Assembly: GCF_041248615.1 (NCBI RefSeq)
Contig: NZ_CP158426.1
Source: Escherichia coli
Lineage (GTDB): Bacteria > Pseudomonadota > Gammaproteobacteria > Enterobacterales > Enterobacteriaceae
Direction: 5' to 3' (one strand)
Length of the DNA stretch: 64,000 nt
Shown: in pieces, positions 33,833 to 60,597 of the stretch
How positions within the stretch are numbered: position 1 is the stretch's first letter
Layout: each line of letters begins with the position of its first letter
Position numbers and translations under genes: made by a program
The notes under the pieces: generated by a model
Database searches by the model: none
What the model was told of the DNA's origin: nothing
The model's input: the letters and a program-made list of their open reading frames with translations, nothing else

Positions 33833-33882
33833 TTGGGGCCGTCCCCGGTGAAAAGAGGCGTTTGCAGGTCGTCCTGCAAAGC
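33833..33882 (-). promoter_or_regulatory. Guanidine-II (mini-ykkC)-like riboswitch in the sugE 5' leader
   Basis: The minus strand reads TTTGCAGG-ACGA-CCTGCAAA, a 14-nt linker, then GGGG-ACGG-CCCC: two GC-rich hairpins each capped by an ACGR tetraloop, ending ~17 nt upstream of the sugE ATG. Confidence 0.55.
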
Positions 33883-48526: not shown

Positions 48527-48602
48527 GCCCGGATAGCTCAGTCGGTAGAGCAGGGGATTGAAAATCCCCGTGTCCTTGGTTCGATTCCGAGTCCGGGCAC
48601 CA
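48527..48602 (+). tRNA. pheU: tRNA-Phe (GAA anticodon)
   Basis: GCCCGGATAGCTCAGTCGGTAGAGCAGGGGATTGAAAATCCCCGTGTCCTTGGTTCGATTCCGAGTCCGGGCACCA, a 76-nt cloverleaf with encoded CCA. Confidence 0.95.
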
Positions 48603-56200: not shown

Positions 56201-56436
56201 CTGTCGTAAAAACAATTGGTTATGAATAAATTAACTTTCAGTTTATCACACTAGCAAATCGAGATTAATAAGTCATTTAAACCATTTTTATGGTTATTTA
56301 TTAGTGATATCAACTTGAGGTAAGCGTTAGTTTCGATAAGATAAACTGAGTTATTAATAGTCGAGGCAGATAATACAGTGTACCGATCTGTCTCTTTATC
56401 TACGCTAAATTGAAAGCTGGATTTAGAGGAACCAAA

Positions 56437-57954
56437 ATGTCTGAACGAGAAACACGGGGAGCCAATGAGGCTATTGATTTTAACGATGAACTGAGAAATC
56501 GCCGCGAAAAACTGGCGGCACTACGTCAGCAAGGTGTGGCGTTTCCCAATGATTTTCGCCGCGACCATACCTCTGACCAGTTGCACGAAGAGTTTGATGC
56601 GAAGGATAACCAGGAACTGGAATCCTTAAACATTGAAGTCTCGGTTGCTGGCCGAATGATGACCCGTCGTATCATGGGGAAAGCCTCCTTTGTAACGTTG
56701 CAGGATGTCGGTGGCCGTATTCAACTGTACGTCGCACGAGATAGCCTGCCAGAAGGTGTTTATAACGATCAGTTTAAAAAATGGGATCTGGGTGACATTA
56801 TCGGTGCCCGCGGTACGCTGTTTAAGACGCAAACGGGTGAGCTTTCCATTCACTGTACTGAGCTGCGCCTGCTGACTAAAGCACTACGTCCTTTACCAGA
56901 TAAATTCCATGGTCTGCAGGATCAGGAAGTCCGTTATCGTCAACGTTATCTGGACCTCATCGCTAACGATAAATCCCGTCAAACGTTTGTTGTCCGTTCA
57001 AAAATTCTGGCCGCTATCCGTCAGTTCATGGTCGCGCGCGGCTTTATGGAAGTAGAAACCCCGATGATGCAGGTAATTCCAGGTGGGGCATCTGCTCGCC
57101 CGTTTATTACCCATCATAACGCTCTGGATTTAGATATGTACCTGCGTATCGCGCCAGAGCTGTATCTGAAACGTCTGGTTGTAGGCGGTTTTGAACGGGT
57201 ATTCGAAATCAACCGTAACTTCCGTAATGAAGGTATTTCTGTTCGCCATAATCCTGAGTTCACAATGATGGAACTCTACATGGCGTATGCGGATTACCAC
57301 GATTTGATTGAACTGACAGAGTCACTGTTCCGCACCCTGGCACAAGAGGTTCTGGGTACCACTAAAGTCACTTATGGCGAGCATGTGTTTGATTTCGGCA
57401 AACCGTTTGAAAAACTCACCATGCGCGAAGCAATCAAAAAATATCGTCCAGAAACCGATATGGCCGACCTGGATAATTTTGATGCCGCTAAAGCATTAGC
57501 TGAATCTATTGGTATTACGGTAGAGAAAAGCTGGGGGCTGGGACGTATTGTCACGGAGATCTTTGATGAAGTGGCAGAAGCACATCTGATTCAGCCAACC
57601 TTTATTACGGAATATCCCGCAGAAGTGTCACCGCTGGCGCGCCGTAATGATGTTAACCCGGAAATCACCGACCGATTTGAATTCTTCATCGGTGGTCGTG
57701 AAATCGGTAATGGTTTTAGCGAATTAAACGACGCAGAAGATCAGGCTGAACGTTTCCAGGAACAGGTTAACGCTAAAGCTGCAGGTGACGACGAAGCCAT
57801 GTTCTATGACGAAGATTACGTGACTGCGCTGGAATATGGTTTGCCACCAACCGCTGGTCTGGGTATTGGTATCGACCGAATGATTATGCTGTTTACAAAC
57901 AGTCATACTATTCGCGACGTTATTCTCTTCCCGGCGATGCGCCCACAGAAATAA
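56437..57954 (+). CDS. lysU: Lysine--tRNA ligase, heat-inducible isoform LysU (505 aa from ATG at 56437)
   Basis: Translation MSE(R/Q)[29 protein letters not shown]... (class II aaRS); assigned lysU rather than lysS by its position next to the cad/dtpC genes. Confidence 0.95.
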
Positions 57955-58072
57955 TTTTCACTTTAATGAACGAAGCAGTCAGGCGACTGCTTCGTTCATC
58001 ATTCCGCAAATCCAGTTTTGAGGAGAGACGCTTCGTTTCACGATAACCAGCGGGTCCACTCAACTACAGCTC

Positions 58073-58246
58073 CTAAAAGAGAGAAAAAAGTAATGCCACA
58101 GGCAGACTCATTGGCCAGGTTATTCCTACCAGGAATGCACTAAGTAAACGAATATGTGTTTTCTCATGTGAGATAAACCAGATAATGACAAAGGATATGT
58201 TCACACCAATCACATAAAAAATTAATATTTTAGAGAATAGTGCCAT
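58073..58246 (-). CDS. ghoT: Type V toxin GhoT, small membrane-lytic peptide (57 aa)
   Basis: Hand translation MALFSKILIFYVIGVNISFVIIWFISHEKTHIRLLSAFLVGITWPMSLPVALLFSLF, TAG stop at 58073-58075; immediately downstream of ghoS. Below the ORF-track cutoff. Confidence 0.85.
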   Translation of the reverse strand: MALFSKILIFYVIGVNISFVIIWFISHEKTHIRLLSAFLVGITWPMSLPVALLFSLF

Positions 58247-58273
58247 TTTTTATGTTCTTCTTATCCTTCCTGG

Positions 58274-58570
58274 CTACTTGTAAAACTGACGGAAATAATC
58301 ATCAACTGTCATAATGTTGAGGTCAAAGTCAATATCCGGTAAGTCTAAGCATTTAAGCCTGATTAAATCTTCGATTTCACTTGCGGCTAACGATGTCGTT
58401 ATTGCGAAGGAGTTTTCATTCAATTGTCGTGGTATCCCATATTCATCAGCCACGATAGAGGAGAAATTCATATCATACATCAATGATCTTAACCTTAAGA
58501 ACACTGAGGAATAAGATGATGGATAATCAAAAGAAACAACATAAGTATTGAACTTGTTTTTACCTTCCAT
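58274..58570 (-). CDS. ghoS: Type V antitoxin GhoS, sequence-specific endoribonuclease (98 aa)
   Basis: ORF translation MEGKNKFNTYVVSFDYPSSYSSVFLRLRSLMYDMNFSSIVADEYGIPRQLNEN... matches GhoS (YjdK). Confidence 0.85.
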   Translation of the reverse strand: MEGKNKFNTYVVSFDYPSSYSSVFLRLRSLMYDMNFSSIVADEYGIPRQLNENSFAITTSLAASEIEDLIRLKCLDLPDIDFDLNIMTVDDYFRQFYK

Positions 58571-58798
58571 AATATGACTCCTATCAATATTGAACGCTCT
58601 GGGGACGCAAAACTTATTAACCCCGATCGATGATTTTCATATAGGAGATATTCTTTTTTTTTTGCTCAGTAAAGGGGATGACTTGGGACAAAAAAACGCT
58701 CTCTCTGACCATTCTTTGTGCATCCCCCTACCCTTCAGATACTCTCCTGCATCACACCGCGGAGAGCAAGAAAAATATCGTGACTCTGTACTCTCCCA

Positions 58799-59071
58799 TC
58801 AACTTCGAATATCATCATACTCACGCGTTTTATCAAATTCGTGTTTCGCAAATGGGCATAGTGGGATAATTTTTCGTTTTTCCCGACGCATTTTTTCCAC
58901 GACTTTCGCAACCAGCTGTTTACCAATCCCTTGCCCTTTCAGGCTTTCATCGACATCGGTATGTTCGATAATCGCTAAATTCTCTCCGGTCGGCACAAAG
59001 ACAATTTCAGCGATTTGCTTGCCCTGTTCGTCATTAATGTAAAATTTATTGTGGCCTTCGCGTATTTCCAT
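58799..59071 (-). CDS. yjdJ: GNAT-family acetyltransferase-like protein YjdJ (90 aa)
   Basis: ORF translation [54 protein letters not shown]...; GNAT motif A (Q/RxxGxG/A). Confidence 0.8.
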
Positions 59072-59082
59072 TTTACCCTCGC

Positions 59083-59313
59083 TTATTTATGACGGTATTT
59101 CAGCGCGCCACTCGGGCACGTATCAATCACTTTAACCACAGTGGCAACGTCGACTTCATCCGGCATGATCCACGGCTTTCGTTTGAGATTAAATAACTTG
59201 CCGTTGCCACGTACGCAATTGCCAGAATGCTGACATATCGCAGTGTTGAAATAGACATCGATCTTTTCGCCGGTATAACAGCGATAACCCCCGTCCAGTA
59301 GCGCCTGATCCAT
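59083..59313 (-). CDS. yjdI: Small Cys-rich protein YjdI (76 aa from ATG at 59313)
   Basis: Translation [55 protein letters not shown]...; the ORF track shows a 102-aa extended version. Confidence 0.8.
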
Positions 59314-59332
59314 GACCTTCCCTCTCTCATCA

Positions 59333-60597
<1,265 letters not shown>

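What the first reader, a model, noticed from the sequence alone, without database searches (positions are those of the whole stretch)
58073..58570. ghoS-ghoT type V toxin-antitoxin pair; the toxin gene is invisible to the ORF track
ghoS (98 aa) is followed after 27 bp by a 57-aa hydrophobic ORF that I translated by hand as GhoT. It falls below the 60-aa cutoff of the supplied ORF track. Type V systems (an antitoxin RNase that cleaves the toxin mRNA) are rare, and this is an example of a functional module that length-filtered ORF calling misses. The locus lies only ~1.1 kb from the IS3-family insertion.
Basis: partly seen in the sequence, partly recalled or inferred. Interest (0 to 1): 0.35.

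Follow-up and report, generated by a model that had tools for sequence, protein, structure and literature searches.

The report
Known E. coli ghoS-ghoT toxin-antitoxin pair
This is the ordinary, already characterised ghoS-ghoT toxin-antitoxin gene pair that almost every E. coli chromosome carries, encoding proteins identical to those of the laboratory strain K-12, so it is correct but not new.

Summary
On the minus strand, a 98-aa ORF (58274..58570) is followed after a 27-nt spacer by a 57-aa hydrophobic ORF (58073..58246).

Both proteins are 100% identical to E. coli K-12 GhoS (b4128; also PDB 2LLZ, 98/98) and GhoT (b4559). They match Pfam GhoS (E 6e-41) and Toxin_GhoT_OrtT (E 9e-26).

The same DNA occurs in 5321 of 5426 complete E. 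coli genomes, where the NCBI pipeline annotates both genes by name. The window itself is E. coli NRZ14408 (NZ_LT599825.1).

The type V mechanism was published for these exact sequences, and I only inherit it from the literature:
- GhoS is an endoribonuclease that cleaves ghoT mRNA.
- GhoT is a small membrane-damaging peptide.
- MqsR cleaves the ghoS part of the transcript at GCU sites.

Sequence details agree with that account: R28 in GhoS, F38 in GhoT, three GCU sites in ghoS and none in ghoT.

The toxin gene is "invisible" only because of the first stage's 60-aa cutoff.

The nearby IS is ISEc31. It starts 769 bp from the ghoS start codon, beyond yjdJ and yjdI, and nothing links it to the pair.

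Verdict: already known, low interest. Minor extras are that the GhoS family is extremely small and that both genes are only 35% G+C.

The parts
58274..58570 (-). ghoS, the 98-aa antitoxin (endoribonuclease GhoS, formerly YjdK)
   Evidence: The ORF is. Pfam PF11080 GhoS matches at E 6.1e-41, 138.8 bits against a cutoff of 21. It is 98/98 identical to PDB 2LLZ 'yjdK' and to K-12 b4128. R28, L25 and M31 sit at the positions discussed in PMC4010927. AGGAG lies 7 nt upstream of the ATG. PGAP annotates it as ghoS in the identical record.
58247..58273 (-). 27-nt ghoS-ghoT spacer (CCAGGAAGGATAAGAAGAACATAAAAA), purine-rich, with the presumed ghoT ribosome-binding region
   Evidence: The sequence is. 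It is identical to K-12 with 0 differences. It shows no stable local structure (z = +1.4). The two genes are in the same frame, but the spacer holds an in-frame TAA.
58073..58246 (-). ghoT, the 57-aa hydrophobic membrane toxin (formerly YjdO)
   Evidence: The ORF appears only at min_aa 30. Pfam PF10753 Toxin_GhoT_OrtT matches at E 8.9e-26, 90.4 bits against a cutoff of 22.1. It is 57/57 identical to K-12 b4559. GRAVY is 1.5, with two hydrophobic segments and F38 present. It has no GCT triplet, against three in ghoS.
57966..57999 (.). Perfect 15-bp inverted repeat with a 4-nt loop between the convergent stop codons of lysU (57954) and ghoT (58073). It is a probable shared transcript-end hairpin.
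   Evidence: It is read directly from the sequence. The minus-strand RNA 57945..58072 folds at -44.4 kcal/mol, z = -4.57, with 0 of 200 shuffles folding as well. It has no T-run, so the consensus terminator scan did not list it. A terminator function is inferred.
58571..58798 (-). 228-nt yjdJ-ghoS intergenic region, the presumed ghoST promoter region (promoter not located)
   Evidence: The only promoter-like hit upstream, 58836..58808, is weak and lies inside yjdJ. In all, 5 hits were found against 2.9 +/- 1.7 expected by chance. Relative to K-12 the region carries several substitutions and an A-run of 10 rather than 8.

Best explanation
This is the chromosomal ghoS-ghoT (ghoST) operon of Escherichia coli, the founding type V toxin-antitoxin system. 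Here it is in strain NRZ14408 and encodes proteins identical to those of K-12.

The published mechanism for these exact proteins runs as follows. The two genes are transcribed together, antitoxin first. GhoT is a 57-residue peptide with two hydrophobic segments. It inserts in the inner membrane, damages it, and lowers proton-motive force and ATP, giving 'ghost' cells. GhoS is a stable 98-residue protein with a Cas2-like fold. It does not bind the toxin. It acts as a sequence-specific endoribonuclease that cuts the ghoT part of the mRNA, so the toxin is not made. Under stress, the type II toxin MqsR, which cuts at GCU, destroys the ghoS part (three GCU sites) and spares ghoT (no GCU sites), which lets GhoT be made.

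Shown here: the identity of the genes, their layout, their conservation, and the sequence features. Inherited from the literature and not testable here: RNase activity, toxicity, and the MqsR cascade.
For: - **Layout.** ORFs and the 27-nt spacer are at the stated coordinates.
- **Identity.** Both proteins are 100% identical to K-12 GhoS and GhoT. GhoS equals the solved NMR structure 2LLZ over 98/98 residues.
- **Family.** Pfam GhoS matches at 6e-41 and Toxin_GhoT_OrtT at 9e-26, both far above the curated cutoffs.
- **Distribution and annotation.** The DNA is present in 5321 of 5426 complete E. coli genomes with ghoS and ghoT annotated. The same context cadA-dtpC-lysU-ghoT-ghoS-yjdJ-yjdI-dcuS is seen.
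- **Selection.** There are 5 synonymous and 0 non-synonymous differences from K-12.
- **Residues and sites named in the papers.** R28 is present in GhoS and F38 in GhoT. ghoS has three GCU sites and ghoT none.
- **Mechanism in the literature.** GhoS as an endoribonuclease specific for ghoT mRNA, Cas2 homology and R28 are stated in PMC4010927. Cleavage of the ghoT transcript and the absence of GCU in ghoT are in PMC4344625. MqsR cleavage of ghoS at GCU is in PMC3874152. Membrane damage, ATP and PMF loss are in PMC12282077.
- **Conserved pairing.** A GhoS relative at 31% identity sits next to a GhoT relative at 49% identity (L007).
Against: - Nothing in the sequence argues against the identification.
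- Almost all the biochemical evidence comes from one group of collaborating laboratories. The primary papers (Wang et al. 2012, 2013) are not in the held library, so I rely on later papers that restate them.
- The absence of GCU in a 174-nt AT-rich gene is not in itself significant. Single-nucleotide shuffles (base composition kept) give zero sites 11% of the time.
[quoted passage not shown] That paper does not address ghoST itself.
- No promoter or canonical terminator could be placed with confidence.
Confidence: 0.93

Rival explanations
1. The genes are ghoS and ghoT, but in the cell the pair is not mainly a toxin-antitoxin switch. On this view GhoS is a small RNase with a broader regulatory role (about 20 transcripts of purine and pyrimidine metabolism are reported as targets). 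GhoT toxicity would be an over-expression effect of a small membrane peptide.
For: - PMC4010927 reports that GhoS also lowers 20 other mRNAs and that two substitutions broaden it into a toxin.
- The locus is a fixed chromosomal gene pair. It occurs in 98% of E. coli genomes, in no phage record, and in no real mobile plasmid; the 9 plasmid-labelled records are all non-mobilizable and up to 4.9 Mb.
- It has no PADLOC defence-family match.
- Some relatives have lost or truncated the toxin while keeping GhoS (L008, L009, L010).
- The stress roles of the MqsRA partner system are contested (PMC6918082).
Against: - The pairing of the two families is kept in a relative at 31% identity, even with the gene order reversed (L007). 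That points to a functional couple.
- Published work shows GhoS neutralises GhoT but not its paralogue OrtT.
- A CRISPRi screen found ghoS knock-down much more costly than ghoT knock-down under gentamicin (PMC12282077).
Confidence: 0.1
2. GhoT is controlled like a type I toxin, by an unannotated antisense or trans-acting small RNA. GhoS would then be secondary.
For: - GhoT resembles type I toxins: short, hydrophobic and membrane-targeting (PMC3874152).
- Two promoter-like matches lie on the plus strand, antisense to ghoT and ghoS, at 58200..58229 and 58286..58315.
Against: - The promoter-like matches are no more frequent than chance (5 found against 2.9 +/- 1.7).
- No Rfam family matches 57800..59400, even at E <= 1.
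- Whole-window hits at gathering score lie elsewhere.
- The ghoS-ghoT junction shows no structure above shuffles.
- Published data attribute neutralisation to the GhoS protein.
Confidence: 0.02
3. The 57-aa ORF is a chance open frame in AT-rich DNA and not a gene.
For: It is short and lies in 35% G+C DNA, where stop-free stretches are less expected but small ORFs abound.
Against: - The Pfam match has E 8.9e-26.
- The product is identical to a studied K-12 protein.
- The only difference from K-12 is synonymous.
- Homologues at 49-76% identity sit next to GhoS homologues in other organisms.
Confidence: 0.005

Closest known systems
GhoS/GhoT (ghoST, formerly yjdK/yjdO) of Escherichia coli K-12, the prototype type V toxin-antitoxin system (Wang et al. 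2012 Nat Chem Biol, cited through PMC4010927 and PMC4344625)
   Same: - Both proteins are identical.
- The gene order, the 27-nt spacer and the neighbours (lysU on one side, yjdJ-yjdI on the other) are the same.
- R28, F38 and the GCU distribution are the same.
   Different: - There are 5 synonymous substitutions in the coding regions.
- The upstream intergenic region has a few substitutions and a 2-nt longer A-run.
- An ISEc31 copy lies 769 bp upstream of ghoS, beyond yjdJ and yjdI.
OrtT (YdcX), the orphan GhoT paralogue of E. coli
   Same: It belongs to the same Pfam family, PF10753 Toxin_GhoT_OrtT, and is a small membrane-damaging peptide.
   Different: OrtT has no partner antitoxin, is not neutralised by GhoS, and its mRNA has two GCU sites (PMC4344625). 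The ORF here is GhoT itself and sits beside ghoS.
Cas2 endoribonucleases of CRISPR-Cas systems
   Same: The literature reports that GhoS shares the Cas2 fold and conserved catalytic residues (PMC4010927).
   Different: There is no detectable sequence-family membership, since Pfam gives only PF11080. There is no CRISPR context. The structural relation was not re-tested here.
Type I membrane toxins (Hok, TisB, Ldr)
   Same: They are short hydrophobic inner-membrane peptides that collapse membrane energy (PMC3874152).
   Different: Their antitoxin is an antisense RNA. Here a protein RNase is the reported antitoxin, and no RNA family is detected.

Membership tests
GhoS antitoxin family (Pfam PF11080) | Sequence match to the family profile above the curated threshold | tested here: met
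   138.8 bits against a cutoff of 21, E 6.1e-41, covering profile positions 6-93 of 94.
GhoS antitoxin family (Pfam PF11080) | Identity with the experimentally characterised and structurally solved protein (K-12 YjdK/GhoS, PDB 2LLZ) | tested here: met
   98/98 identical to 2LLZ chain A and to b4128.
GhoS antitoxin family (Pfam PF11080) | Catalytic arginine R28, reported as the most important residue for RNase activity | tested here: met
   Residue 28 of the translation is R, flanked by L25 and M31 as described in PMC4010927.
GhoS antitoxin family (Pfam PF11080) | Endoribonuclease activity on ghoT mRNA | not testable with these tools
   This is a biochemical property. It is reported for the identical protein.
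GhoT/OrtT toxin family (Pfam PF10753) | Sequence match to the family profile above the curated threshold | tested here: met
   90.4 bits against a cutoff of 22.1, E 8.9e-26, covering profile positions 1-55 of 55.
GhoT/OrtT toxin family (Pfam PF10753) | Short peptide with two hydrophobic membrane segments; F38 needed for toxicity | tested here: met
   57 aa, GRAVY 1.5. Hydrophobic windows cover residues 1-27 and 31-57 with a polar SHEKTHIR turn between them, and residue 38 is F. The F38R constructs are listed in PMC4344625.
GhoT/OrtT toxin family (Pfam PF10753) | Toxicity on expression (membrane damage, ATP loss) | not testable with these tools
   Reported for the identical K-12 protein.
Type V toxin-antitoxin system | Antitoxin and toxin genes adjacent, on the same strand, as one operon with the antitoxin first | tested here: met
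   Both are on the minus strand, ghoS upstream, with a 27-nt spacer. Co-transcription itself is inferred from the layout and the literature.
Type V toxin-antitoxin system | A protein antitoxin that acts by degrading the toxin mRNA rather than by binding the toxin | not testable with these tools
   This is the definition given in PMC4010927. It is inherited through sequence identity only.
MqsR-GhoST cascade | MqsR GCU sites present in ghoS and absent from ghoT | tested here: met
   ghoS has GCT at nucleotides 121, 213 and 221; ghoT and the spacer have none. On its own the statistics are weak: P(0 sites) is about 0.11 in single-nucleotide shuffles that keep base composition.
Type I toxin-antitoxin system (considered as a rival) | An antisense or nearby small RNA antitoxin | tested here: inconclusive
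   No Rfam match at E <= 1 in 57800..59400. Antisense promoter-like hits are at chance level. An undescribed RNA cannot be excluded from sequence alone.

The most novel reading that the evidence does not exclude
In this one strain (NRZ14408), ISEc31 has inserted 26 bp upstream of yjdI. If the yjdI-yjdJ transcript normally reads through into ghoST, the insertion would cut that transcription off and change the ghoS:ghoT balance. Separately, an undescribed antisense RNA might overlap ghoT. Neither idea has positive evidence; they are simply not excluded.
Probability: 0.03. Interest if true: 0.25.

Novelty: already known. Interest (0 to 1): 0.05.

Why it matters
It matters little biologically. The locus is a textbook example, it is present and annotated in nearly all E. 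coli genomes, and here it encodes the very proteins on which the experiments were done.

The practical lesson concerns method only. A 60-aa ORF cutoff hides real small genes such as ghoT, so short hydrophobic ORFs next to small conserved genes deserve a look. That is well known, and standard annotation pipelines already call this gene.

The side results are small additions rather than discoveries:
- The GhoS family is tiny worldwide.
- Both genes have low G+C.
- Relatives show reversed, fused or decayed forms of the pair.

Tried and rejected
- **NCBIfam.** No model matched either protein, although PGAP names both genes. No conclusion drawn.
- **PADLOC defence models.** No match.
- **Phage genomes.** No GhoS match by tblastn.
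- **Plasmids.** Nine records matched, all E. coli, all 'non-mobilizable' and 94 kb to 4.9 Mb. Several of them are as large as whole chromosomes (4.8-4.9 Mb), so they are probably chromosomal sequence filed as plasmid. This is no evidence for a mobile ghoST.
- **Rfam.** Nothing at a permissive threshold over 57800..59400.
- **Consensus terminator scan.** It found none. The strong hairpin between lysU and ghoT lacks a T-run and was found by eye and by folding.
- **Promoter-like hits.** At chance level, so no promoter is claimed.
- **Spacer fold.** No structure that might occlude the ghoT start.
- **Primary papers.** PMC3514572 and PMC3620836 are not held, so the mechanism is cited from later open papers.
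- **Fraikin et al. 2019 (PMC6918082).** Checked for a direct challenge to ghoST; it does not mention the locus.
- **Structure prediction and fold search.** Not run, because an experimental structure of the identical protein exists.

Full report
**1. What is in the sequence.**

Reading 57700..58900 and listing ORFs down to 30 aa shows two adjacent ORFs on the minus strand. One is 58274..58570, 98 aa, starting MEGKNKFNTYVVSFDYP. The other is 58073..58246, 57 aa, reading MALFSKILIFYVIGVNISFVIIWFISHEKTHIRLLSAFLVGITWPMSLPVALLFSLF.

The spacer between them is 27 nt, CCAGGAAGGATAAGAAGAACATAAAAA. The first gene has AGGAG 7 nt before its ATG. The second has only a purine-rich stretch further upstream.

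The 57-aa product has GRAVY 1.5 and pI 9.7. It has two hydrophobic stretches separated by a short polar turn.

**2. Identity.**

- Pfam places the 98-aa protein in PF11080 GhoS (E 6.1e-41) and the 57-aa protein in PF10753 Toxin_GhoT_OrtT (E 8.9e-26). Both are far above the curated thresholds.
- The 98-aa protein is identical over all 98 residues to the NMR structure 2LLZ, 'Uncharacterized protein yjdK'.
- I fetched the K-12 MG1655 locus, where ghoS is b4128 and ghoT is b4559. Both window proteins are 100% identical to the K-12 proteins.
- At the DNA level, ghoS differs from K-12 at 4 positions and ghoT at 1. All five are third codon positions and synonymous. The spacer is identical.

**3. Distribution and origin of the window.**

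An 801-bp query across the pair matches 5321 of 5426 complete E. coli genomes. The matched features are annotated 'type V toxin-antitoxin system endoribonuclease antitoxin GhoS' and 'toxin GhoT'.

The gene order is the same in the two 100%-identical records fetched and in K-12: cadA-dtpC-lysU(lysS)-ghoT-ghoS-yjdJ-yjdI-dcuS.

The window is 100% identical to E. coli NRZ14408 (NZ_LT599825.1). That is the only one of the 5426 genomes that carries the IS junction seen here.

The toxin gene is therefore invisible only to a 60-aa ORF filter, not to standard annotation.

**4. How it works.**

The mechanism is inherited from the literature for the identical proteins.

- GhoS is described as an endoribonuclease specific for ghoT mRNA. 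It has a Cas2-like fold, and R28 is its key catalytic residue. It is not toxic, and it also lowers about 20 other transcripts (PMC4010927).
- GhoT damages the membrane and lowers ATP and proton-motive force (PMC4344625; PMC12282077; PMC3874152).
- The type II toxin MqsR cleaves the ghoS part of the transcript at 5'-GCU, while ghoT lacks such sites. Stress therefore enriches ghoT mRNA.

I checked the sequence-level parts of this account. R28, with L25 and M31, is present in GhoS, and F38 is present in GhoT. ghoS has GCT at nucleotides 121, 213 and 221, whereas ghoT and the spacer have none. The absence from ghoT is consistent with the model but not significant alone; P is about 0.11 in single-nucleotide shuffles that keep base composition.

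RNase activity, toxicity and the cascade cannot be tested with these tools. The two primary papers are not in the held library.

**5. Transcript boundaries.**

No promoter can be placed, because promoter-like matches are at chance level (5 found against 2.9 +/- 1.7).

A perfect 15-bp inverted repeat with a 4-nt loop lies at 57966..57999, between the convergent stops of lysU (57954) and ghoT (58073). The minus-strand RNA folds at -44.4 kcal/mol with z = -4.57. This is probably a shared transcript-end hairpin. It lacks a T-run, so the consensus scan missed it.

No Rfam family matches the locus. The ghoS-ghoT junction has no structure beyond shuffles.

**6. Related sequences elsewhere.**

GhoS is a very small family.

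- The word-indexed search of 5.8 billion proteins returned 47 clusters. Nearly all are at least 64% identical to the query, and every cluster that carries a source name is named E. coli or Shigella, apart from one partial protein from a human gut metagenome.
- The exhaustive HMMER scan of 1.84 billion 50%-identity representatives returned only 37 hits at E <= 0.001. About a dozen of these are full-length relatives at 27-59% identity.
- The protein is absent from phage genomes. It occurs only in nine E. coli records labelled as plasmids, all non-mobilizable and several as large as whole chromosomes.

Neighbourhoods of the relatives vary.

- In L007, a 31%-identical GhoS lies 22 nt downstream of a 49%-identical GhoT, so the order is reversed.
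- In L009 and L010, a 59%-identical GhoS is followed by a GhoT remnant of 37 aa.
- In L008, a 27%-identical GhoS has no GhoT-like neighbour.
- In L004-L006, GhoS-like and GhoT-like parts are read as one 135-aa ORF.

The pairing of the two families is thus conserved at distance, which fits a functional couple. It also decays in some lineages.

Both window genes are 35% G+C in a region of about 46-55%. This is a composition typical of horizontally acquired DNA, although the locus is now fixed in the species.

**7. The IS.**

Comparison with the IS-free isolate 362 places the insertion between 59340 and 60597. It is 1258 bp with TG...CA ends, 26-nt imperfect terminal inverted repeats and a 3-bp direct repeat GAT. 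It is 100% identical to copies annotated ISEc31, an IS3-like element.

It sits in the yjdI-dcuS intergenic region, 26 nt before the yjdI start and 157 nt before the dcuS start. That is 769 bp from the ghoS start codon, with yjdJ and yjdI in between. Nothing ties it to ghoST.

**8. Verdict.**

The locus is the already known and routinely annotated ghoST pair, so novelty is nil and interest is low. The rivals are a broader or non-TA role for GhoS, a type I-like RNA control, and a chance ORF. Respectively, they are compatible only as a nuance, unsupported, and refuted.

Noticed in passing
window 59340-60597: An ISEc31 (IS3-like) copy of 1258 bp, with TG...CA ends, 26-nt imperfect terminal inverted repeats and a 3-bp target duplication GAT. 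It is inserted in the yjdI-dcuS intergenic region, 26 nt upstream of the yjdI ATG and 157 nt upstream of the dcuS ATG. Of 5426 complete E. coli genomes, only NRZ14408 has this junction. It may separate yjdI, and possibly dcuS, from native promoter elements. That was not tested.
   Followed up: partly
window 59408-59530 (+): A full-length Rfam match to isrC 'Hfq binding RNA' (150 bits, E 1.5e-36). It lies inside the 5' part of the ISEc31 transposase orfA, so this sRNA family model coincides with IS3-family transposase coding sequence.
   Followed up: no
window 58073-58750: ghoS and ghoT are 35% G+C, and the surrounding roughly 0.7 kb is 34-38%, against about 46-55% in flanking genes. This suggests old horizontal acquisition of a locus that is now near-universal in E. 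coli.
   Followed up: partly
L004 1011-1457; also L005, L006 (protein P0042): In metagenome contigs, a 65%-identical GhoS-like sequence and a 76%-identical GhoT-like sequence are read as a single ORF with no stop between them. There is an in-frame stop just before the conserved GhoS N-terminus. The cluster has 91 member sequences, and the neighbour is an EamA transporter rather than lysU. It is either a natural fusion or a decaying locus.
   Followed up: partly
L007 2305-2800; L009 2501-2954; L008 198-491: Distant GhoS relatives show a reversed gene order (ghoT then ghoS, 22-nt spacer, L007), a truncated 37-aa GhoT (L009, L010), or no GhoT neighbour (L008). Several sit beside an EamA transporter. 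L007 and L009 also sit beside an amino-acid decarboxylase plus permease pair, which recalls the cadBA neighbourhood in E. coli.
   Followed up: partly
window 58654-58663: A homopolymer run of 10 T on the plus strand (10 A on the ghoS strand), about 85-95 nt upstream of the ghoS ATG. K-12 has 8. This is a length-variable tract in the presumed ghoST promoter region.
   Followed up: no
window 58314-58514 (+): A 66-aa ORF antisense to ghoS. It is most likely a spurious open frame opposite a real gene, and it was not examined.
   Followed up: no
window 56410-57954 (+): PGAP labels the lysyl-tRNA synthetase next to ghoT as 'lysS' in RefSeq genomes. By position it is lysU, the inducible paralogue, as in K-12. 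This is an annotation naming quirk.
   Followed up: no
window 33834-33880 (-); 18470-18886 (-); 48527-48599 (+): Other Rfam hits at gathering score in the window: a Guanidine-II (mini-ykkC) riboswitch, three tandem tRNA genes with identical scores, and one further tRNA. All look ordinary for E. coli.
   Followed up: no
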